Below, piece by piece: positions 3,061-38,132 of a stretch of 64,000 nt of DNA. Made by a program: the position numbers and the translations under genes. Origin of the DNA: Dehalococcoidia bacterium (GTDB lineage Bacteria; Chloroflexota; Dehalococcoidia; Lucifugimonadales; QGNO01); NCBI GenBank assembly GCA_965248955.1, contig OZ252212.1, forward strand, positions 66,668 through 130,667, given 5' to 3'. A model generated the notes under the pieces. The model had not been told where the DNA came from and did not search any database. It saw only the letters and a list, made by a program, of their open reading frames with translations. Within the stretch, counting starts at the first letter, position 1. Every line of letters starts with the position of its first letter.

Positions 3061-3681
3061 CTACACCTGGGAAAGCTCCCGGAACAGTTGATGCCAAGTC
3101 TCCGCAGGCTCTACTCCGTAACCTTCACGGAACACTATTACTCCATTCCTATCTACGGCTACCTTGGTGGACTGCTGCACAACATTGTACTGCGGAAGCA
3201 TGGCAGCCGGCGCCTTGGCCACAGGCCAGGAGTGGTCCTGTCCATCTCTGTACCTGACCAAGTCACTCAGTTCTTCTGTCGGATCAATGCCCAGGGCGTA
3301 GAAATCCACGGAGTCCTGGTATTCAGGGTAAACATCCTTTAGCAACCGTAACTCGGTGCGGCAAGTCGGTCACCAGGTGGTGAAGAAGAAGAGGACTACG
3401 GGGCGTCTCTGTTCTGTCAACTCGTCCAACTGGATGGGCTGGCCCGTGGACACCTCGGCCAAGGTGAAGTCAGGCGCCAGGTTGCCAACCCGGTTTCCCG
3501 TTGCGGAGGTTGGAGTTTCCGCTGCAACAGGTACGGTAACGTTCGGAGTTGGCGTATCTGTAGGCTCGACTGTAGTAGAGGTAGTGCCCACTCCGCTAGT
3601 GCAAGCTAGGTTGAACAACAAAAGAAGGGCCCCAAGGGCAACAGATAGCTTTTTAATTGCGGGGAAAAACATAGACGCCAT
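3061..3681 (-). CDS. TlpA/ResA-like thioredoxin-fold thiol:disulfide oxidoreductase lipoprotein, predicted selenoprotein (Sec at TGA 3370-3372)
   Basis: ORFs 3370..3867 and 3061..3345 share one frame (807 nt) and are separated only by TGA. Read-through gives ..PVVLFFFTTW-U-PTC-RTELRLLKDVYPEY.., the WCxxC redox motif with U in place of the first Cys. Likely start is ATG 3679-3681 (MASMFFPAIKKLSVALGALLLLFNLAC, signal peptide plus lipobox). SECIS-like hairpin downstream and selA nearby. Confidence 0.75.
3342..3359 (-). promoter_or_regulatory. SECIS-like recoding hairpin downstream of the in-frame UGA
   Basis: mRNA GCACCG-AGUUA-CGG(U)UGC forms a 6-bp stem with one bulged U and a GU-containing apical loop. 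It starts 11 nt 3' of the UGA at 3370-3372. Confidence 0.5.
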
Positions 3682-3898
3682 TATATCAGTTAAAATACAT
3701 AGGCAAGCTGAGTACTTTCTTCCCAATTGGCCAGTTTTTTGTAGCCTGCCGAGAGGATGCAGAGCATGGGACTCCCCAGATAGTTGTATCATCCGTTTAG
3801 CCAGATCGACAAGCTGTTGCCGGTCTGGCAGGAACGCATTGTAACCTTCAGTGAAAATGGGACACATGCGGTAAAAGCGATAAAAAAGGAGCCTGCGG

Positions 3899-5383: not shown

Positions 5384-6742
5384 TCATACCATTCCCGCCG
5401 CCAGCCTTACCGCCTTTACCAGTGCGTCCTCTTCCTCTGCCATTATGGTGCGGAGGTCCAGCACGAGCTTGTCGTCTTCAATGCGGCCAATTACAGGCGG
5501 GTCGGCTTGGCGGAGAGCGTCCGCCATTGCATCCGGGTTGCTGTCGAGCGCAACAAGCCAGGTGGGCAGGGTTTCACCGGGAAGGCTGCCCCCGCCGATG
5601 GTCGAGCGCCCCGGAGCAATGGAGGCTATGGGGCCAATGGCTCTCTGCAACGCCAGGGCACGCTCCTTCAGATGGGACTCTGAGGCGGAGATCATACGCC
5701 AGATGGGGATCTCCGTGACGGCTTCGTCTTTCAGGTAGTGCAGAAGTGTAGCGGCCAGTGCGGATAAGCTGAGCTTGTCTATTCGCACGGCGCGGGCCAG
5801 CGGATGTGCAGACAGCTTTTGCACAAGGTCCTTGTTGCCGGCGATTATGCCGGCCTGCGGCCCGCCGAGGAGTTTATCGCCGGAGAAGAAGGACAGCCCG
5901 CATCCTGCAGAGATGCTCTCTTGGACGGTGGGTTCATGGGCCAGGCCAAACCGGGACGCATCCAGCAAGCAGCCGGAACCGAGGTCGTGGAGGACGGGCA
6001 GATTGCGCTCTCTGCCCAGGGCTGCCAGCTCGGTGATCTCCGCCGAGTGTGTGAAGCCCGTAATGCGGAAGTTGCTGGCATGCACCTTGAGAATGGCGCC
6101 GGTTTCTTCACCAATGGCGGACTCGTAGTCGGAGACGTAGCTGCGGTTGGTGGCGCCGACTTCGACAAGTCGTGCTCCGCTCTGGGCAAGGACTTCTGGA
6201 ATGCGGAAGCCACCGCCTATTTCTACGGCTTCACCACGAGACACTACAACTTCTTTGTCCCGTGCCAGGGCAGCAAGGCCAAGCATAACCGCAGAGGCGT
6301 TGTTGTTCACTACCAGTGCCGCCTCTGCTCCGCTGACCTGGGTTATTAGTGAATTGACATGGGCCTGCCTTGATCCGCGCTGCCCCCGGTAGAGTTCGAA
6401 CTCCAGGTCGGAGTAGCCACTAGCTGCGTCGTTCATGGCCTGAAGAGCCGGTTTGCTCAGGGGAGCGCGGCCCAGGTTGGTGTGCAGGACGACTCCGGTG
6501 GCGTTGATGACTCGCCGGGGGCCGGTTGTCCATTGCCGGGATGCTTCCATGCACACGCTTTCCACTATCTGGGCAAGGTCTGGAACGGGGTCACCGCCTG
6601 AAATCGAGTAGCGGATCCCGTCCAGATGGTGACGTATCATGGTGACGACGGCTTCATGGGAGTAGGTTGCAACCAGTTGCTGCACCGGCTCTTGCTGTAA
6701 GACGGCGTCAATGCTAGGGAGGCTACGTAATCGGCTGACCAA
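5384..6742 (-). CDS. selA: L-seryl-tRNA(Sec) selenium transferase SelA
   Basis: 452 aa. Long colinear matches to E. coli SelA as I recall it: INATGVVLHTNLGRA, VVNNNA.AV, EVVVSRGE.VEIGG.FRIP, FSGDKLLGGPQAGII (PLP-Lys region). Confidence 0.93.
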   Translation of the reverse strand: MVSRLRSLPSIDAVLQQEPVQQLVATYSHEAVVTMIRHHLDGIRYSISGGDPVPDLAQIVESVCMEASRQWTTGPRRVINATGVVLHTNLGRAPLSKPALQAMNDAASGYSDLEFELYRGQRGSRQAHVNSLITQVSGAEAALVVNNNASAVMLGLAALARDKEVVVSRGEAVEIGGGFRIPEVLAQSGARLVEVGATNRSYVSDYESAIGEETGAILKVHASNFRITGFTHSAEITELAALGRERNLPVLHDLGSGCLLDASRFGLAHEPTVQESISAGCGLSFFSGDKLLGGPQAGIIAGNKDLVQKLSAHPLARAVRIDKLSLSALAATLLHYLKDEAVTEIPIWRMISASESHLKERALALQRAIGPIASIAPGRSTIGGGSLPGETLPTWLVALDSNPDAMADALRQADPPVIGRIEDDKLVLDLRTIMAEEEDALVKAVRLAAGMV

Positions 6743-6949: not shown

Positions 6950-7500
6950 CGATCCTTCGACAAGCTCAGGACAAGATATCGTAGTTGCATGGCTGGTTTT
7001 CGTAGCGGCTGCGGGTAGGCGGTTTTGAAAGGCATGTTGGACATGGAGAGAGGATAGCGCGAGACGTCGGGCATGGGGAAGGAGGGAGTGGCAGGGCTTC
7101 GAGTGCGGGGTGAGCGGCTGTGGGGGCCACACCCCGCCCCTGGATGCCCGTCGTCTCGGGCATGACGATAGGGGGCAGGCGTCGCGGGCATGACGGTAGG
7201 GGGCTAGTGGGGAAGGGGGCTGTTGCTTGCGCATTGGCCTGGGATTCTTCGCTGTGCTGAGCATGGCTACCCCCCCACAGCCAGATTGCTTCGCTACGCT
7301 CGCAATGACGAAAGGGGTGTGACTGGCTCGGGGCACTGTCGTTTCCGTGGAGACGGGAACCTACTCCCGCCCCTGGATGCCCGTCGTCACGGGCATGACG
7401 GTAGGGTGCTGCCCTGGATGCCCGTTCCCCGATCGGGGTCGGGGACAGGCTCCGCATCAAGTGCGGGGCAGGCTCCACGGGCATGACGATAGAGGCCCGT
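6950..7500. repeat. Cluster of short palindromic intergenic repeat units (REP/MITE-like)
   Basis: CGGGCATGACGRTAG occurs 4 times (7157, 7185, 7390, 7478). CCGCCCCTGGATGCCCGTCGTC occurs twice (7134, 7367). Also the hairpin CCGCATCAAGTGCGGGGCAGGCTC (7452-7475) and the GATTGCTTCGCTACGCTCGCAATGACG and TTCGACAAGCTCAGGACAAG units. ORFs here translate into repeat-derived low-complexity sequence. Confidence 0.65.
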
Positions 7501-7575
7501 GGCAAACGGGGGCTTGGCGTCGAGGCCTTGATTTCCCTATTCAGCCCAGGCGCTGTGGTAAAATGTGGCTCTGCT

Positions 7576-8940
7576 ATGACGAAACCTAACTTCAAGAACC
7601 GCACGCTGTGGACGGGCGACAACCTGGATGTCATGCGCGGCCTCAACTCAGAGTCCGTGGACCTGATCTACCTGGACCCGTCGTTCAACTCCAACCGGGA
7701 CTACTCCGCGCCCATCGGGTCGGAGGCGGCGGGCGCGGCCTTCAAAGACACCTGGACGCTCTCCGACGTAGACCTTGCATGGCACGGGGAGATAGCGGAG
7801 GCTAACCCTGCCCTCTACCGCGTGATAGATGCGGCAAGAGAGGCACACGGCAAGGGGATGAAGTCATACCTGATAATGATGGCCGTCCGTCTGCTGGAGA
7901 CGAAGCGGATACTGAAGCCGACGGGCTCCATCTATCTCCATTGCGATCCAACAGCAAGCCACTACTTGAAGTTGGTCATGGATTCGATCTATGAGAAAGA
8001 TAACTTCAGGAATGAGATTGTTTGGCGTCGTTCTCACCCGAAAGGGCTGGCTTTCACGCGCTTTGCTCAGAATCACGACTTAATCTTGGTTTATAGTCGC
8101 AATGGTGCTACTACATGGAATCAAATGTATGTTTCCAATCCTAACGCCTTGAAGCAATACAACTTGATAGAACCTGAGACTGGGCGTAGATACCAACTGA
8201 CAAGCCTGCTGAATCCCAATCCTAATCGCCCTAACCCGACTTATGAATTCAAGTGCTACAAGGGTATGGCGTTGGACGAGAGAACGAATGGAGCAGGCAG
8301 ACCGGGACGGCCTAATTGTTGTCCCGCGCGGAGGAAAAGGTATACCGCGATTAAAGCGATACCTCGATGAACAGGAAGGCATCCCGATAAGCGATACATG
8401 GGATGACATTCCAGTAGCCTTGGGGAAAGAGCGAACCGGCACCCCACTCAAAAGCCTCTTGCGCTGCTGGAGCGCATCATCAAGGCCTCTTCCAACGAAG
8501 GCGACGTGGTGTTGGACCCGTTCTGCGGCTGCGCCACCGCCTTGATAGCCGCCGAGAAGCTGGAGCGTCAGTGGATAGGAATAGACCTGTCGCCGGTGGC
8601 TAGGATGCTAGTGCAGCGTCGTATGGCAAAAGAGCTTGGCTTTGACAGCCTTGGCGTCATCTACCGCGACGACGTGCCCATGCGGACTGACCAGGGGAAG
8701 CTACCCCATTACAGGACGCACAAGCACACGCTGTTTGGGAAGCAAGAAGGGCACTGTGCGGGGTGCAGGCACGATTTCCCGTTTCGCAACTTCACCGTTG
8801 ACCACATCGTGTCGCAGTCCAAGGGCGGCACCGACCATATCGACAACCTTCAATTGCTATGCAACGCCTGCAACTCGATGAAGGGAACTAAGACGCAAGA
8901 GGAGTTCTTGGCCGTGCTGAGGCGGGAGGGGATTAGGTAG
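7576..8940 (+). pseudogene. Beta-class (N6-A/N4-C) DNA methyltransferase fused to a C-terminal HNH endonuclease domain; two frameshifts
   Basis: Frame 1: MTKPNFKNRTLWTGDNLDVM..VDLIYLDPSFNS (motif IV variant DPSF). Homology moves to frame 2 at about 8263 (RVWRWTRERMEQADRDGLIV..PRLKRYLDE) and back to frame 1 at about 8441 (PTQKPLALLERIIKASSNEGDVVLDPFCGCATA, motif I). C-terminus HCAGCRH..FTVDHIVSQSKGGTDHIDNLQLLCNACNSMKG is an HNH domain. Confidence 0.7.
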
Positions 8941-33173: not shown

Positions 33174-33344
33174 TCCGGGCATAATCGGCTTCCCTGGGCG
33201 GAACAGGACCTGAGGGTCGGGGGGCCATGAGATAAAGGGGTGGCGCGATGCGTGTGCTTTCTTTCCCATTCTGGCCGAGACGACGCTATCCTGCTTTTCC
33301 GGGTACTCTCGTGCGTACCACTCGACCTGTCTGAGGAGACGCCA

Positions 33345-36300
33345 TTGACTACGCCCCACCGGGCCGTGTCCTTGCTCTTGCTTACGGCGTTCTTCCTTTG
33401 CGTCTCCGATCCAAGAACGTCCGATGCCACGCCGGTACACAGAGCGGTTCACGGCCTGAGCATAAGCACAGTGGCCAATGGCTCCGTCCTGCCAGCCCCC
33501 GCCACCAATCAGCGCCCACCCAAGCCCGAAGTGACTGACCAGACCACATACGCAGGGGGAACCTTCACCTACACCGTACCGGAGGTCACAGACCCGGATG
33601 GAGACTCGCTCACCTACCAAGCGTTTCTGGGGGCTTGGAACGCGCTGCCGAGATGGATCACGTTCGACTCCGACACTCGAACCTTCACCTTCAAACCGCG
33701 GAATGCCCATATCGGTGAACTGAAGATTCGCGTTAGTGTGTCCGATGGATCGCTTGAAAGCTATGCCGACTTCACGCTGGAGGTGACCGCAACGCCGCCA
33801 AACAGGCCTCCAACAGCGCCAACGCTAACAGATCAGACTGCCACAGAGGACGAATCCTTCACCTACACCGTGCCTGCTTTCACCGACCCGGACGAGGACA
33901 CGCTCACCTACACCGTCGCACAGTCCAACGACAGCTCCCTGCCAGGCTGGCTAAGCTTCAACGCCGGCACTCACACCCTCAGCGGCACGCCAGAGGAGGC
34001 CGACACCCCGGCCACCCTCACCGTCCGGGTCACCGCCAGCGACGGGACGGAATCAACCAGCGCCACATTCACCCTGACGGTGGAGGAGGTTAACGACCCA
34101 CCCATCGCCAGCAACGACTCCGCTACCGTGGCAGAGGGTAGTACGCTGGCCATCAACTCCTCAACTCTGCTATCCAACGACTCAGACCCAGATGACGATA
34201 CCCTGACCATCACCACCGTGAGCAACTCGGCCAACGGTACAGTCTCACTATCCGAGGATACGGCCACAGTCTCCTACACTCACGACGGTTCGGAGACAAC
34301 TTCGGACAGCTTCACTTATACCATCAGCGACGGCTCGGCTATCGACACGGCTACGGTCACCATCACCGTTACACCGGCCAACGACCCACCCGTCGCTAAC
34401 AACGACTCCGCTACCGTGGCAGAGGGTGGTACGCTGACCATCAACTCCTCAACTCTGCTATCCAACGACTCAGACCCAGATGACGATACCCTGACCATCA
34501 CCACCGTGAGCAACTCGGCCAACGGTACAGTCTCACTATCTGAGGATAAGGCCACAGTCTCCTACACTCACAACGGTTCGGAGACAACTTCGGACAGCTT
34601 CACTTATACCATCAGCGACGGCTCGGCTATCGACACGGCTACGGTCACCATCACCGTTACACCAGCCAACGACCCACCCATCGCCAGCAACGACTCAGCT
34701 ACCGTGGCAGAAGGTGGTACGCTGACCATCAACTCCTCAACTCTGCTATCCAACGACTCAGACCCAGATGACGATACGCTGACCATCACCACCGTGAGCA
34801 ACTCGGCCAACGGTACAGTCTCACTATCTGAGGATAAGGCCATAGTCTCCTACACTCACGACGGTTCGGAGACAACTTCGGACAGCTTCACTTATACCAT
34901 CATCGACGGCTCGGCTACCAGCACGGCTACGGTCACCATCACCGTTACACCAGCCAACGACCCACCTGGTGCGCCATCCCTGACGGACCAGACCGCCACT
35001 GCGGGCCAGCCGTTCACCTACCAGGTGCCAGAGGTCATAGACCCGGACAGCGACACCCTCACCTACAACGCGGCCCTGGGCCAGGCCATGAATCCTCTGC
35101 CGCTCTGGCTCACCTTCGACGCGGCCACTCGCACCTTCAGCGGCACGCCCCGCAGGGCACACGTTGCCACCCTCACAATCGTGGTAGAGGTGTCCGACGG
35201 TTCGGCCGAGTCGTCCAGAGCCTCCTTCACGCTGACGGTTGTGCTGCCGCCTAATAGGCCTCCAACAGCGCTCACCCTGACGCCGCAAACCGCAACCGAG
35301 GACCAGCCTTTCAGTTACACAGCGCCGGCTTTCACCGACCCGGACGACGATGCGCTCACCTACACCTCCGCACTCGTCGACGACGACGCACTTCCTGCCT
35401 GGCTTAGCTTCACCCCTAGCTCCCGCACCTTCAGCGGCACGCCTCTGGAATCCGACACGCCGGCCACCCTAACCATACGAGTCACCGCCACGGACGACGG
35501 CGAGCCGCCGGAATCGGCGTCCGCAACCTTCACCCTCACAGTCGAAGAGGTCAACGACCCACCCGAAACGCCATCGCTGACAAACCAGACCGCCACAGAG
35601 GACGAGCCCTTCAGCTACACCTTCGACGCCGTTACCGACCCGGAGGGCGACTCGGTGGCCTATACCGCTATGTTGGACCACGGTGTCGCACTCCCCGGGT
35701 GGCTCAGCTTTGACGATAACGCTCGCACCTTCAGTGGCACTCCGGGCGAGGCCAACGTGCCGGCCACCCTCACCATACGCGTCACCGCTACAGACAGCAG
35801 CACGCCGCAGGCATCAGCCAACGCCACCTTCACCCTCACGGTGAGTGAGCGTAACGACGCGCCCATCGCTGGCAACGACACCGCGACGGTCGCTGAGGGC
35901 GGCACCGTGAGCATCGCCGCCTCAACGCTTCTTGACAATGACTCAGATCCCAACGACGATAACCTTACCATCACAGCCGTGAGCGACGCGGCCAGCGGCT
36001 CGGTCGTCCTCTCGGAGGACGGTAAGACGGTCACCTATACCCACAACGGGTTGGAGACCAGGTCTGGTGGCTTTACCTACACTGTCAGCGACGGCTCGGC
36101 TACGGACACCGCTACGGTCGCCATCGCCGTAACGCCCGTCAACGACCCGCCCGAAACGCCATCGCTGTCGGACCAGACGGCCACGGAGGACGAGTCGTTC
36201 CGCTACACCTTCGCCACCGTCTCCGACCCGGAGAGCGATAGCATCACCTACGGGGCAACACTCGTCGGCGGTAGCACCCTCCCCGGGTGGCTCAGCTTCG

Positions 36301-38132
36301 ATGCCTACACTCGCACGTTCAGCGGCACGCCCCTGGAACCCGACACCCCAGCCACCCTCACCATCCACGTCACCGCCACAGACGACGGCGAGCCGCCGGA
36401 ATCGACGTCCGCAACGTTCACCATCGCGATCCAAGAGGTCAACGACCCGCCTACGGCGCCATCGCTGACAGACCAGACCGCGTTTGTCGACGACCTCTTC
36501 AGCTACACCGTGCCAGAGGCGACCGATCCCGAGGACAGCAGGCTCACCTACGACGCATTTCAGGGCGGGGGCAGCAACCCCCTGCCGCGCTGGCTAAGGT
36601 TCAATAAGAACACCAGAACCTTCAGTGGCACGCCTCTGGAGGCGGACATGGCCACACATGAGATCATGGTCTCTGTCTCCGACGATTTGTACACTAGAAA
36701 TGCCACCTTTCAGCTGTCTGTCGCCCTCCCGGCGAACCGCCCGCCCACGGCGCCCACCTTCCGGCCTCAGACGGCCACCGAGGACCGCTTCTTCTTCTAC
36801 CAGGCGCTGGCCTTCGACGACCCGGACGGCGACACACTCATCCACAATGCTACCCTGTCTGATGGTAGTGCCCTTCCTTCCTGGCTCGACTTCACGGCTG
36901 GTACCAGCGCCCTCATCTTCAGAGGCACGCCCCGAGAGGCCGACACGCCGGACACGCTTACCATACTCGTCACTGCTACAGATGGTACGGAAACGGCTGA
37001 CACCGTCTTCACGCTGAGCGTCGTCGAGGTCAACGACCTACCAACGGCCAACGCCGGGCTCGACCAGACGGTCGGCGAAGGCGAGACGGTAACTCTCGAC
37101 GGCTCCGGCAGCTTCGACCCCGAGGGACTTCCACTGACCTACGCCTGGACACAGACCGGCGGACCCGGTGTCGCCTTGAGCGGTGCGGACACGGCCTCGC
37201 CGGCCTTCACCGCGCCGGATAGGCTGGCCGACGACGCGACCCTCAGGTTTGCCCTAGTGGTGACCGACGCCTCCAACGCCTCAACCGCAGACGATGTGCT
37301 CGTTCTCGTAGAGGCAAGGGCACTGCTGCTCATAATACCCACCCCGCCGCCGACTCCCGTCGTCAACCCATCGCCAACTCCCATCGCCACCCAAGCCGCC
37401 GCACCCAATCGCACGCTGACCTTCGGTTCCGCAGTGGTCGAGAACATGACCTTCAGCGTAGGTCAGCACGTGGAAACGTCGCCGCTGCCCAGTGCCAGGG
37501 GCGGCGATGGCGCTCTCAGATACAGTCTTTCGCCTGTCCTGCCCAGTGGCCTGCGCTTCGATGCTTCGTCTCGCGCCATCACCGGCATTCCCACAAAGGC
37601 CCTGGAGCGCACCCTTTTCACCTACACCGCCACCGACTCCAACGGCGACGGCGCATCGCTGAGATTCAACATCGCCGTGGCGGAGCCCGTAGTGACCGTT
37701 GAGACGGACGGCAAGAGCAAGGTGACGTCACTCTTGCTGTCTGCCATCGGGTACGGCCGGACGCCTGAACCGACGCCGACGCCAATTCCGCCTCCAACGA
37801 TAAATTGGTCCCTAACACCCACACCAACGCCCTCGCCGCGACCAACAGCGACACCCATGCCGCAACCTATGCCCACAGCGACGCCATCACCGAAGCCAAC
37901 AGTGGCACCCACCGCGCAGCCTACGCCCACAGTGACACCATCGCCGTGGCCAACGGCGCCACCCACACCTACGTCAACTCTTGCTACCCCAGTGCCACCG
38001 TCACCCATGGCTGAGGCCGAACCGGGGAACAACAAAGGCATTCCAGCCTGGGTTTGGGTCATCGCTGTGCTGGTGCTGGCCGTCGCCGCGCTAAGCGGAG
38101 CCATCGCTGCAGTCATGCGCCGCCGGAGGTGA
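33345..38132 (+). CDS. Giant cell-surface repeat protein (dystroglycan-type cadherin-like/He_PIG domains, cadherin-like VCBS-type domains, PKD-like domain, Pro/Thr stalk, C-terminal TM anchor)
   Basis: Roughly 1600 aa. About 9 repeats of the pattern DQTATEDE.F.YT.P.FTDPD.D.LTY.A......LP.WLSF....RTFSGTP.E.D.PATLTI.VTA.D. Four repeats NDPP.A.ND.ATVAEGGTL.I..STLL.NDSDPDDD.LTIT.VS....G.V. A PKD-like ANAGLDQTVGEGETVTLDGSGSFDPEG.PLTYAWTQ. C-terminal IPAWVWVIAVLVLAVAALSGAIAAVMRRRR. Probable TTG start at 33345 (GAGGAG SD, signal-like LLLLTAFFLCV); the ORF-track start is 33240. Confidence 0.85.
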   Translation: MTTPHRAVSLLLLTAFFLCVSDPRTSDATPVHRAVHGLSISTVANGSVLPAPATNQRPPKPEVTDQTTYAGGTFTYTVPEVTDPDGDSLTYQAFLGAWNALPRWITFDSDTRTFTFKPRNAHIGELKIRVSVSDGSLESYADFTLEVTATPPNRPPTAPTLTDQTATEDESFTYTVPAFTDPDEDTLTYTVAQSNDSSLPGWLSFNAGTHTLSGTPEEADTPATLTVRVTASDGTESTSATFTLTVEEVNDPPIASNDSATVAEGSTLAINSSTLLSNDSDPDDDTLTITTVSNSANGTVSLSEDTATVSYTHDGSETTSDSFTYTISDGSAIDTATVTITVTPANDPPVANNDSATVAEGGTLTINSSTLLSNDSDPDDDTLTITTVSNSANGTVSLSEDKATVSYTHNGSETTSDSFTYTISDGSAIDTATVTITVTPANDPPIASNDSATVAEGGTLTINSSTLLSNDSDPDDDTLTITTVSNSANGTVSLSEDKAIVSYTHDGSETTSDSFTYTIIDGSATSTATVTITVTPANDPPGAPSLTDQTATAGQPFTYQVPEVIDPDSDTLTYNAALGQAMNPLPLWLTFDAATRTFSGTPRRAHVATLTIVVEVSDGSAESSRASFTLTVVLPPNRPPTALTLTPQTATEDQPFSYTAPAFTDPDDDALTYTSALVDDDALPAWLSFTPSSRTFSGTPLESDTPATLTIRVTATDDGEPPESASATFTLTVEEVNDPPETPSLTNQTATEDEPFSYTFDAVTDPEGDSVAYTAMLDHGVALPGWLSFDDNARTFSGTPGEANVPATLTIRVTATDSSTPQASANATFTLTVSERNDAPIAGNDTATVAEGGTVSIAASTLLDNDSDPNDDNLTITAVSDAASGSVVLSEDGKTVTYTHNGLETRSGGFTYTVSDGSATDTATVAIAVTPVNDPPETPSLSDQTATEDESFRYTFATVSDPESDSITYGATLVGGSTLPGWLSFDAYTRTFSGTPLEPDTPATLTIHVTATDDGEPPESTSATFTIAIQEVNDPPTAPSLTDQTAFVDDLFSYTVPEATDPEDSRLTYDAFQGGGSNPLPRWLRFNKNTRTFSGTPLEADMATHEIMVSVSDDLYTRNATFQLSVALPANRPPTAPTFRPQTATEDRFFFYQALAFDDPDGDTLIHNATLSDGSALPSWLDFTAGTSALIFRGTPREADTPDTLTILVTATDGTETADTVFTLSVVEVNDLPTANAGLDQTVGEGETVTLDGSGSFDPEGLPLTYAWTQTGGPGVALSGADTASPAFTAPDRLADDATLRFALVVTDASNASTADDVLVLVEARALLLIIPTPPPTPVVNPSPTPIATQAAAPNRTLTFGSAVVENMTFSVGQHVETSPLPSARGGDGALRYSLSPVLPSGLRFDASSRAITGIPTKALERTLFTYTATDSNGDGASLRFNIAVAEPVVTVETDGKSKVTSLLLSAIGYGRTPEPTPTPIPPPTINWSLTPTPTPSPRPTATPMPQPMPTATPSPKPTVAPTAQPTPTVTPSPWPTAPPTPTSTLATPVPPSPMAEAEPGNNKGIPAWVWVIAVLVLAVAALSGAIAAVMRRRR
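34092..34955 (+). repeat. Three tandem near-identical 288-bp (96-codon) repeats inside the surface-protein gene
   Basis: Unit starts AACGACCCACCC at 34092, 34380 and 34668 (the next unit would start at 34956), exact 288-bp period. The copies differ at only a handful of positions by eye. A fourth, diverged copy lies at about 35850-36150. Confidence 0.9.

What the first reader, a model, noticed from the sequence alone, without database searches (positions are those of the whole stretch)
3061..3681. Split ORF is most likely a selenocysteine-containing TlpA/ResA-type thioredoxin-fold lipoprotein (W-U-P-T-C)
ORFs 3370..3867 and 3061..3345 (minus strand) lie in one frame and are separated only by TGA (3370-3372). 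Reading through gives NLAPDFTL....PVVLFFFTTW-[TGA]-PTC-RTELRLLKDVYPEY..VDFYALGID... This is a complete TlpA/ResA/DsbE-like domain in which the stop sits exactly on the first Cys of the WCxxC active site. Neither half alone is a complete fold. A hairpin GCACCG-AGUUA-CGG(U)UGC (GU in the loop, one bulged U) begins 11 nt after the UGA, the spacing used by bacterial SECIS elements. selA lies 1.7 kb away on the same strand. The N-terminus from ATG 3681 has a lipoprotein signal (LLLLFNLAC), so the Sec redox centre would be extracytoplasmic. Gene callers will truncate or split this gene.
Basis: partly seen in the sequence, partly recalled or inferred. Interest (0 to 1): 0.75.

Follow-up and report, generated by a model that had tools for sequence, protein, structure and literature searches.

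The report
Selenocysteine TlpA-like lipoprotein gene, split
The two "ORFs" are one gene for an exported, lipid-anchored thioredoxin-fold redox protein whose active-site cysteine is replaced by selenocysteine, encoded by an in-frame TGA; this kind of selenoprotein is already known, but gene callers split this gene and every close relative in the databases.

Summary
On the minus strand, 3681..3061 is one reading frame, interrupted only by TGA 3372..3370 (W-U-P-T-C).

- **Fold:** The joined product matches Pfam AhpC-TSA and Redoxin across the TGA. The TGA aligns with the first Cys of WCxxC in ResA.
- **Conservation:** The same in-frame TGA is present in 39 distinct related sequences from Dehalococcoidia/Chloroflexota MAGs and marine metagenomes. 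More distant homologues have TGT or TGC there.
- **Translation past the TGA:** The downstream half evolves as coding sequence (dN/dS 0.22-0.48).
- **Code:** TGA is an ordinary stop for 12 of 40 long ORFs in the window.
- **SECIS:** The hairpin at 3359..3342 (loop AGUUA, 16 nt between UGA and loop) is conserved across the family. Five of its six base pairs show compensatory changes, with 0 of 500 shuffles reaching the observed values.
- **Machinery:** An intact selA lies 1.7 kb away, and this synteny holds in five genomes. selB, selC and selD could not be checked.
- **Localisation:** The signal peptide plus Cys27 lipobox is conserved.

This is a new member of a known kind: UxxC Prx-like/TlpA-like selenoproteins have been described since 2005. 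All the closest database entries are unnamed split fragments. Interest is moderate.

The parts
3061..3681 (-). Complete selenoprotein gene. It has 206 codons including UGA, or 203 from the more conserved ATG at 3672, and ends with stop TAG 3063..3061.
   Evidence: Searches show a single frame. Pfam AhpC-TSA (3.7e-14) and Redoxin (1.5e-11) cover residues 65-185, across the TGA.
3601..3681 (-). Signal peptide with a lipobox-like end (LLLLFNLA-C27). The Cys27 codon is at 3603..3601.
   Evidence: The same feature (h-region followed by Cys, e.g. LLLFSIAC, LLFGIAC, ILAAAC, TIVVSAC) is present in nearly all full-length relatives. A few have an uncleaved TM anchor instead.
3499..3600 (-). Thr/Pro-rich low-complexity tether (residues 28-61) between the lipid anchor and the catalytic domain.
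   Evidence: The length and sequence vary between relatives, and it is much longer in the paralogues.
3064..3498 (-). TlpA-like thioredoxin-fold domain (residues 62-206) with the redox motif W103-U104-P105-T106-C107.
   Evidence: Pfam. PDB phmmer gives 2ls5 at 2e-13 and ResA 4nmu at 9.5e-9, with CxxC aligned to UxxC.
3370..3372 (-). In-frame UGA, the selenocysteine codon (residue 104), at the position of the N-terminal nucleophilic Cys of CxxC.
   Evidence: Conserved as TGA in 39 distinct sequences. It is TGT or TGC in more distant homologues.
3361..3363 (-). Codon of the resolving Cys107 (TGC). It lies between the UGA and the first possible restart codon.
   Evidence: TGY is invariant at this position in all Sec and Cys family members inspected.
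3342..3359 (-). SECIS hairpin: stem G14-C31, C15-G30, A16-U28 (or A16-U29), C17-G27, C18-G26, G19-C25, with one bulged U. The loop AGUUA is at 3353..3349. Numbering counts the U of UGA as 1.
   Evidence: The sequence is almost invariant in the window's clade. In the wider family the hairpin is GCGCCG-AGUUR-CGGCGC, and 5 of 6 pairs change on both sides.
5384..6742 (-). selA (L-seryl-tRNA(Sec) selenium transferase, 452 aa), part of the Sec synthesis machinery.
   Evidence: Pfam SelA 2.1e-137. TIGR00474 equivalog scores 562.7 bits against a cut-off of 267.9. The synteny selA-HAD-(GNAT)-gene-recN is conserved in L005, L006, L007, L010 and L012.

Best explanation
Window 3681..3061 (minus strand) is a single gene for a selenoprotein.

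**Decoding (inferred mechanism).** When the ribosome reaches UGA 3372..3370, the small mRNA hairpin that starts 10 nt downstream (3359..3342, pentaloop AGUUA with G and U at loop positions 2-3) is bound by the SelB.GTP.Sec-tRNA(Sec) complex. This inserts selenocysteine instead of terminating. Sec-tRNA(Sec) is made by the SelA encoded 1.7 kb away.

**Product (fold shown, localisation and role inferred).** The product is a pre-lipoprotein that is exported, cleaved and lipid-modified at Cys27. It is held on the outer face of the cytoplasmic membrane by a Thr/Pro-rich tether. Its catalytic part is a TlpA/ResA-like thioredoxin-fold domain in which the exposed attacking Cys of WCxxC is Sec (W-U-P-T-C). 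Sec104 attacks a substrate disulfide or oxidised sulfur, and Cys107 resolves the intermediate into a selenenylsulfide. The centre is then presumably re-reduced by a CcdA/DsbD-type membrane electron conduit.

**What is shown and what is inferred.**
- Shown: the single reading frame, the conserved UGA, the Sec/Cys pairing with homologues, purifying selection downstream, hairpin covariation, the fold family, selA, and the conserved signal peptide plus Cys.
- Inferred: actual Sec insertion, lipidation, the direction of the redox reaction, the substrate and the reductant.
For: - **One frame and its fold.** There is one frame with a single TGA. Pfam AhpC-TSA scores 53.2 bits (cut-off 26) and Redoxin 44.8 bits (cut-off 26.6), both spanning the TGA. 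PDB alignments place the TGA on the first Cys of sWCgvC (2ls5) and tWCkpC (ResA 4nmu).
- **Database relatives are cut at the same place.** All three N-terminal database relatives end in ...TW. All 34 C-terminal relatives but one are 61-96-aa fragments.
- **Recurrence of the TGA.** It is at the same codon in L001-L014 and L016 and in 25 of 28 metagenome loci. TGT or TGC occupies that codon in L015, L017-L024, L087, L094, L095 and in archaeal homologues.
- **Selection downstream of the TGA.** dN/dS is 0.22-0.48 with dS up to 1.3. Indels come in multiples of three and there are no further stops.
- **Genetic code.** TGA terminates 12 of 40 long ORFs, including selA and the neighbouring HAD gene, so the code is standard.
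- **Hairpin covariation, wider family (23 sequences).** 95.7% of cells are paired. Five of six pairs change on both sides: 14-30 GC/CG/GU/UG, 15-29 CG/UA/AU/UG, 16-28 GC/UA, 17-27 CG/UG/UA, 18-26 CG/UA. None of 500 shuffles reaches any of the measures, and slid controls give 19-59% paired.
- **Hairpin covariation, window clade.** 99% of cells are paired, and pair 16-28 occurs as AU, GU, GC and UA.
- **RNA-level constraint.** The compensatory changes alter the encoded residues (CRAELRR, CAAELRQ, CSVELRQ). Cys homologues are variable at this stretch (REMNQ, KDLSE, GELQQ). The constraint therefore acts on the RNA.
- **Fit to the published bSECIS model (PMC13188914, read).** The element has a 5-nt loop, G at loop position 2 followed by U, a 6-bp stem and a 16-nt spacing.
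- **selA.** It is intact and syntenic in five genomes.
- **Taxon.** Dehalococcoidia MAGs are among the most selenoprotein-rich bacteria known (46 and 49 genes; PMC13326102, read).
Against: - No selB, selD or tRNA-Sec was found in the 64-kb window or in about 1.3 Mb of fetched loci. The rest of the source genome could not be read.
- No Rfam SECIS family matches. This is expected, because bacterial SECIS elements are too diverse for those models.
- The window's own hairpin is weak. It scores -6.4 kcal/mol alone and -7.4 with a 3-bp lower stem, against the model's -7.5 threshold. A competing local fold is slightly more stable at -8.5, although it is not conserved in the paralogues.
- The -3 lipobox residue is Asn in the window (FNLAC), which is atypical.
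- No partner gene such as ccdA/dsbD, cytochrome c biogenesis genes or sco lies nearby to fix the physiological role.
- There are no expression or protein data.
Confidence: 0.9

Rival explanations
1. The gene is a pseudogene, or the TGA is a sequencing or assembly error: an ordinary Cys-containing TlpA-like gene inactivated by a TGC/TGT-to-TGA change.
For: Gene callers split it. The window does contain at least one apparently decayed gene, the frame-shifted methylase at 7483..8940.
Against: The same TGA occurs in 39 distinct sequences from independent assemblies that are 32-86% identical at protein level. The downstream half is under purifying selection. A structured RNA with compensatory changes follows the TGA.
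Confidence: 0.01
2. The UGA is read through without selenocysteine, for example by near-cognate Trp or Cys tRNA or by a lineage-specific suppressor. In this reading the hairpin acts only as a read-through stimulator.
For: selB, selC and selD were not seen. Read-through-stimulating hairpins exist in other systems (general knowledge).
Against: The UGA sits exactly on a catalytic Cys, which is the hallmark Sec/Cys pair. The hairpin matches the SelB-type bSECIS model in loop G-U, spacing and size. A dedicated selA is adjacent and conserved. TGA is otherwise a normal stop.
Confidence: 0.04
3. Termination at UGA is the main outcome. The 103-residue lipoprotein fragment, and/or a separately initiated 94-residue C-terminal protein from TTG 3345, are the functional products. 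Read-through would be only a minor, selenium-dependent by-product.
For: Sec insertion in bacteria competes with RF2, so some truncated product is expected (general knowledge). Both ORFs are called by gene finders.
Against: Neither half is a complete thioredoxin fold. P-x-C and the codons between the UGA and TTG 3345 are conserved at protein level although they lie upstream of any restart codon. The position and type of the apparent downstream start codon are not conserved among relatives: fragments begin at query positions 3 to 13.
Confidence: 0.05

Closest known systems
"Prx-like thiol:disulfide oxidoreductase" / "Prx-like protein" selenoprotein family (PF00578, UxxC). Described in Sargasso Sea and GOS metagenomes and in Geobacter and Syntrophus genomes (PMC1088965, PMC1794560, PMC2398784, PMC13188914).
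   Same: The best Pfam hit is the same (AhpC-TSA, PF00578). [quoted passage not shown] In both, Sec replaces the N-terminal Cys, the SECIS lies inside the coding region directly after the UGA, and the family is abundant in marine metagenomes.
   Different: Direct sequence comparison with the published representatives (for example WP_010940744.1) could not be made here, so membership of the same subfamily is untested. Distinctive features of this family are the conserved lipoprotein signal with a Thr/Pro tether, its occurrence in Dehalococcoidia/Chloroflexota, its frequent tandem arrays, and a family-specific, nearly invariant SECIS (GCGCCG-AGUUR-CGGCGC).
"Thiol-disulfide isomerase-like protein" selenoprotein family (cd02966 TlpA-like, UxxC), plus the "Thiol:disulfide interchange protein" family (PF13098, UxxC) (PMC1088965, PMC13188914 Table 1).
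   Same: Both have a TlpA-like thioredoxin fold, a UxxC motif and a predicted thiol-disulfide redox role.
   Different: In the window protein PF13098 is only a sub-threshold hit (21.1 bits against a cut-off of 27). The cd02966 model is not in the libraries available here, so this could not be tested.
ResA / CcmG(DsbE) / TlpA: Cys-containing extracytoplasmic thiol-disulfide reductases of cytochrome c and cytochrome oxidase maturation.
   Same: The fold is the same, with a W-C-x-x-C type centre. All are membrane-tethered on the outside of the cytoplasmic membrane. ResA is the best named PDB match (4nmu, 9.5e-9) and the alignment covers the whole domain.
   Different: The window protein has Sec instead of Cys. 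NCBIfam scores are far below the family cut-offs: ResA 49 against 170, DsbE 31 against 359, TlpA 16 against 230. No cytochrome c maturation, ccdA or sco genes lie in the neighbourhood. It is therefore not an orthologue, and the substrate is unknown.
E. coli fdhF / Moorella thermoacetica fdhA SECIS elements (the SelB-binding hairpin).
   Same: All are hairpins inside the coding sequence, starting about 10-11 nt after the UGA, with exposed G and U in a small apical loop and an optional bulged U. The comparison rests on general knowledge and on the model in PMC13188914.
   Different: The hairpin here is shorter (a 6-bp stem with no conserved lower helix). The loop is AGUUR rather than GGUC. In the window clade the bulge is on the 3' arm. 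The spacing sits at the extreme short end of the 16-37 nt range.

Membership tests
Bacterial selenoprotein gene | In-frame UGA conserved among orthologues and paralogues | tested here: met
   TGA is at the same codon in 39 distinct sequences.
Bacterial selenoprotein gene | The UGA aligns with Cys in homologues (Sec/Cys pair) | tested here: met
   TGT or TGC occupies that codon in L015, L017-L024, L087, L094, L095 and archaeal loci. Full-length proteins P0005, P0006, P0009, P0014, P0024, P0028 and P0177 read WCPxC there, as does the first domain of P0007. PDB ResA aligns its Cys to it.
Bacterial selenoprotein gene | Protein-level conservation continues 3' of the UGA in the same frame | tested here: met
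   dN/dS is 0.22-0.48 downstream, and indels preserve the frame.
Bacterial selenoprotein gene | bSECIS geometry: apical loop of 3-9 nt, G in the first two loop positions, upper stem of 4-16 bp, 16-37 nt between UGA and loop (PMC13188914 Fig. 2A) | tested here: met
   The loop is AGUUA (5 nt, G at position 2 followed by U), the stem is 6 bp plus one bulge, and the spacing is 16 nt. Covariation is shown.
Bacterial selenoprotein gene | bSECIS stability: MFE at or below -7.5 kcal/mol | tested here: inconclusive
   The window hairpin scores -6.4 alone and -7.4 with a 3-bp lower stem. Most relatives score -8 to -12.3.
Bacterial selenoprotein gene | The genome encodes SelA, SelB, tRNA-Sec (selC) and SelD | tested here: inconclusive
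   selA is present and intact. selB, selC and selD are absent from the 64-kb window and from the fetched loci.
Bacterial selenoprotein gene | Selenium demonstrated in the protein (75Se labelling or mass spectrometry) | not testable with these tools
   This needs an experiment.
TlpA-like / redoxin thioredoxin-fold superfamily | Significant match to the family profiles over the whole domain, with a CxxC-type centre after beta-1 | tested here: met
   PF00578 scores 53.2 bits (cut-off 26) and PF08534 44.8 bits (cut-off 26.6), covering residues 65-185. There are 38 PDB matches, all thioredoxin-fold.
ResA / DsbE(CcmG) / TlpA proper (orthologue level) | Score above the NCBIfam family cut-off | tested here: not met
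   ResA scores 49 against 170, DsbE 31.4 against 359 and 29.4 against 123, and TlpA 16.2 against 230.
Peroxiredoxin (Prx/BCP) | PxxxTxxC(U) peroxidatic motif | tested here: not met
   The sequence is VVLFFFTTW-U-PTC. There is no Pro at position -7, and the motif is WUxxC, which is thioredoxin-like.
Bacterial lipoprotein | Signal peptide ending in a lipobox [LVI][ASTVI][GAS]-C | tested here: inconclusive
   The window has F-N-L-A-C, with Asn at -3, which is atypical. Most relatives have canonical F-S-I-A-C, F-G-I-A-C or L-A-A-A-C. Lipidation itself is not testable here.

The most novel reading that the evidence does not exclude
In Chloroflexota (Dehalococcoidia) this surface-tethered TlpA-like lipoprotein family may be ancestrally and predominantly selenocysteine-containing. 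On this reading, one homologous minimal SECIS (GCGCCG-AGUUR-CGGCGC) has been preserved while the proteins diverged to about 32% identity. The genes have multiplied into tandem arrays of 2-3 copies. The Cys forms nested in the family (L015/L019-L024 and L017/L018/L022, the latter still carrying a hairpin relic) would be Sec-to-Cys reversions. This is the opposite of the Cys-to-Sec trend reported for thiol oxidoreductases (PMC1794560). The subfamily would be uncatalogued, since every close database entry is an unnamed fragment. [quoted passage not shown]
Probability: 0.35. Interest if true: 0.5.

Novelty: new member of a known kind. Interest (0 to 1): 0.4.

Why it matters
- **Annotation.** This gene and all of its close relatives are stored in public protein collections as two unnamed fragments. 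Both the redox centre and the selenoproteome of these Dehalococcoidia are therefore under-counted. About 50 of the 150 best cluster representatives found with the C-terminal half look like such second halves.
- **SECIS model.** The family offers an unusually clean natural covariation series for a minimal bacterial SECIS: a 6-bp stem, an AGUUR loop and the shortest allowed spacing. This could help refine SECIS models and SelB-binding rules for Chloroflexota.
- **Biology.** An exported, lipid-anchored UxxC protein implies selenium-dependent redox chemistry at the cell surface. Its substrate is unknown.

Tried and rejected
- **Rfam.** Searches at gathering and permissive thresholds gave no SECIS hit. 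This is uninformative, because bacterial SECIS elements are not well modelled there.
- **Folding energy.** Single-sequence energy and z-score for the hairpin are not significant (z = -1.2 to -0.2), so I relied on covariation instead.
- **Competing fold.** An alternative fold pairs the UGA region with the 3' arm (-8.5 kcal/mol). I rejected it because it is not conserved in the PK paralogue type.
- **Global TGA reassignment (code 4 or 25).** Rejected, because TGA ends 12 of 40 long ORFs.
- **Search for selB, selD and tRNA-Sec.**
  - ARAGORN on the window and all loci found 33 tRNAs, none of them Sec.
  - A Pfam scan of about 45 window ORFs found none.
  - tblastn with E. coli SelB and SelD sequences recalled from memory, used only as fishing probes, gave just one weak AIRS-domain hit in L004, probably ThiL.
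  - The exhaustive search and structure prediction accept only exact window sequences.
  - Look-ups of the window's SelA and of the paralogue P0156 found no record.
  - The first metagenome alignment was too divergent to give a search pattern.
  - The BSepDB supplement listing family representatives is not held, so identity with a catalogued subfamily could not be checked.
Full report
**1. Observation**

On the minus strand the sequence reads ...TTC ACC ACC TGG TGA CCG ACT TGC CGC ACC GAG TTA CGG TTG CTA AAG.... The ORFs 3370..3867 and 3061..3345 share one frame and are separated only by TGA 3372..3370. Translating 3681..3061 gives a 206-codon product with a single internal stop, in the context FFFTTW-*-PTCRTELRLLKD.

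**2. What the protein is**

- With Cys substituted for the stop, the product matches Pfam AhpC-TSA (3.7e-14, 53.2 bits against a cut-off of 26) and Redoxin (1.5e-11). Both matches cover residues 65-185, so they run across the TGA.
- Against PDB sequences the best matches are thioredoxin-fold thiol-disulfide oxidoreductases: 2ls5 at 2e-13, ResA 4nmu at 9.5e-9, then DsbE/CcmG. Their WCxxC aligns exactly on W-[TGA]-P-T-C, and the alignment continues about 80 residues further.
- NCBIfam places it nearest ResA, but far below the family cut-offs: ResA 49 against 170, DsbE 31 against 359, TlpA 16 against 230. It belongs to the TlpA-like/redoxin superfamily and is not an orthologue of those enzymes.
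- It lacks the PxxxTxxC peroxiredoxin motif.

**3. Is the TGA real and is it read through?**

- *Database relatives.* A search with the joined protein returned only three relatives, all ending ...F(F/A)TW. In their contigs each is followed, in frame after a TGA, by a 93-aa ORF, and two contigs carry tandem pairs.
- *Genome collection.* A scan of the species-representative genomes found the family in Dehalococcoidia and Chloroflexota MAGs. Loci L004-L014 (70-86% identical) and the more distant L016 (49%) have TGA. L015 and L017-L024 (38-49%) and archaeal homologues have TGT or TGC.
- *Metagenomes.* A scan seeded only with C-terminal halves returned 30 loci. Of the 28 that cover the active-site codon, 25 have TGA at this codon, although they are only 32-59% identical in protein and have varied motifs (WUPVC, WUTTC, WUAVC, YUPVC, WULVC, WUGTC, PUGTC, WUMTC). 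Three have Cys.
- *Selection.* Among four distinct copies, dN/dS downstream of the TGA is 0.22-0.48 at dS up to 1.3. Indels are multiples of three and there are no further stops. The conserved P-x-C lies before any possible restart codon.
- *Genetic code.* TGA is the normal stop of 12 of 40 long ORFs in the window, including selA and the HAD gene next door. The genetic code is standard.

These results exclude a pseudogene, a sequencing error and a reassigned code.

**4. The SECIS element**

Positions are numbered with the U of UGA as 1.

- *In the window.* The hairpin is G14-C31, C15-G30, A16-U28 (or U29), C17-G27, C18-G26, G19-C25, with one bulged U and the loop A20-G21-U22-U23-A24.
- *Energy.* On energy alone it is unremarkable: -6.4 kcal/mol, z = -1.2. 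With a short lower stem it reaches -7.4.
- *Wider family.* The element is GCGCCG-AGUUR-CGGCGC, at -8 to -12 kcal/mol. On 23 distinct sequences, 95.7% of cells pair. Five of six pairs show changes on both sides: 14-30 GC/CG/GU/UG, 15-29 CG/UA/AU/UG, 16-28 GC/UA, 17-27 CG/UG/UA, 18-26 CG/UA. None of 500 shuffles reaches any of the five measures, and slid registers give 19-59% pairing.
- *Window clade.* On 16 sequences with the one-base bulge, the single variable pair 16-28 occurs as AU, GU, GC and UA.
- *Loop.* AGUUR and the closing G-C pair are invariant. The 39 sequences used were collected with a regex that required GAGTT. However, all 25 TGA-bearing metagenome loci had it before any such filter was applied.
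- *RNA-level constraint.* The compensatory changes alter the encoded peptide (CRAELRR, CAAELRQ, CSVELRQ). Cys-containing homologues are free to vary at this stretch (REMNQ, KDLSE, GELQQ). In the window clade the rare Leu codon TTA in the loop is fixed.
- *Fit to the published model.* The geometry fits the published bacterial SECIS consensus: a 3-9-nt loop, G in the first two loop positions usually followed by G or U, a 4-16-bp stem, and 16-37 nt from UGA to loop (PMC13188914). It sits at the short extreme of the spacing range.

**5. Sec machinery and taxon**

- selA is full length and scores 562.7 bits on the TIGR00474 equivalog.
- The arrangement selA-HAD-(GNAT)-gene-recN is conserved in five Dehalococcoidia genomes at 88-94% SelA identity.
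- No tRNA-Sec, selB or selD lies in the window or in any fetched locus (Pfam scans).
- Independent literature reports Dehalococcoidia MAGs among the ten most selenoprotein-rich bacteria, with 46 and 49 genes (PMC13326102).

**6. Localisation**

The N-terminus is a signal peptide ending in Cys27, followed by a Thr/Pro-rich tether. Nearly all full-length relatives have the same design with more canonical lipoboxes (FSIAC, FGIAC, LAAAC, VSAC). A few have an N-terminal TM anchor instead. An extracytoplasmic location is therefore a conserved family trait. Lipidation itself is inferred.

**7. Mechanism proposed**

- SelB-dependent recoding at UGA 3372..3370 is directed by the hairpin at 3359..3342.
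- The protein is exported and lipid-anchored.
- The surface-exposed Sec104 acts as the attacking nucleophile of a thioredoxin-type U-x-x-C centre, and Cys107 resolves the intermediate to a selenenylsulfide.
- The centre is re-reduced by an unidentified CcdA/DsbD-type conduit.
- The substrate is unknown. No cytochrome c maturation, sco, msr or ccdA gene is linked in the window or in L001.

**8. Comparison with what is known**

UxxC thioredoxin-fold selenoproteins have been described since 2005-2008 and are listed in current reviews (PMC1088965, PMC1794560, PMC2398784, PMC13188914). They include:

- the "Prx-like" family (PF00578);
- the "thiol-disulfide isomerase-like" family (cd02966, TlpA-like);
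- the "thiol:disulfide interchange protein" family.

The present gene is a further member of that kind. What is specific to this family:

- a lipoprotein design with a Thr/Pro-rich tether;
- restriction to Chloroflexota;
- tandem arrays of 2-3 paralogues;
- Sec as the predominant state;
- a very uniform minimal SECIS.

All close database entries are unnamed fragments of 61-96 aa or 173-208 aa. About 50 of the 150 best representatives in the exhaustive search are 71-103-aa proteins that begin just after the CxxC site.

A rough, unbootstrapped NJ tree nests two Cys clades within the Sec clade. Some Cys forms (L017/L018/L022 and P0177) retain the hairpin or the AEL(F)R peptide. This hints at Sec-to-Cys reversions and is tentative.

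**9. Verdict**

I put the confidence that this is a genuine selenoprotein gene at about 0.9. It is a new member of a known kind. Its main value lies in correcting annotation and in the clean SECIS covariation series. Interest is 0.4.

Noticed in passing
window 7067-7500: There are four dispersed copies of a ~44-nt repeat (CCCGCCCCTGGATGCCCGTCGTCNCGGGCATGACGRTAGGGNGC, with a palindromic core ATGCCCG...CGGGCAT) in the region upstream of selA. The spurious long ORFs here encode the repeated peptide PYRHARDDGHPGAG. The syntenic relatives L007 and L010 have two ORFs of 245 and 242 aa directly upstream of selA.
   Followed up: partly
window 7483-8940 (+): An N6/N4 DNA methylase fused to an HNH endonuclease is broken into three frame-shifted pieces: 7483..8370, 8243..8545 and 8506..8940. 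It is either a decayed restriction-modification gene or the result of assembly errors, and may lie within an insertion relative to the syntenic genomes.
   Followed up: partly
L001 9684 and 10520; L002 10077 and 10937; L003 1703 and 2551; L008 9543, 10130 and 11014; L009, L011, L013, L014; L097 709, 1498 and 2296: Relatives carry tandem arrays of two or three paralogous Sec-containing copies, each with its own TGA and SECIS. The window has only one copy. A second paralogue (P0156, 85% identical) sits on a contig of the same length (2,006,147 bp) as the one carrying the window's own fragment, so it is probably in the same genome.
   Followed up: partly
L017 ~325, L018 ~127, L022 ~3150; protein P0177: These Cys-containing family members (WCTTCRAEFR and WCPTCRTELRR) still have a SECIS-like hairpin or peptide; L017, for example, has GAGCCG-AGUUU-CGGCUC. 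A rough NJ tree nests two Cys clades among the Sec forms. Together this suggests Sec-to-Cys reversions that left fossil SECIS elements.
   Followed up: partly
L047 7157-9232 (Krumholzibacteriia MAG): This is an unrelated secreted multidomain protein of about 690 aa: a repeat-rich N-terminal region, a TlpA-like domain and a C-terminal sorting-type domain. It has an in-frame TGA in FANW-U-PVC and its own downstream hairpin, GGUCCGG-AGUUUU-CGGACC. It is probably another split selenoprotein, in a different phylum.
   Followed up: partly
protein P0007 (274 aa, from the exhaustive search): A Cys-type domain (TWCPIC) is followed in the same ORF by a second domain that stops at ...FFAATW. This looks like a Cys-plus-Sec tandem-domain fusion cut at the Sec codon.
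   Followed up: no
window 33240-38132 (+): A 1630-aa ORF is made of many bacterial Ig, cadherin-like and He_PIG repeats. It is probably a giant surface or adhesion protein.
   Followed up: no
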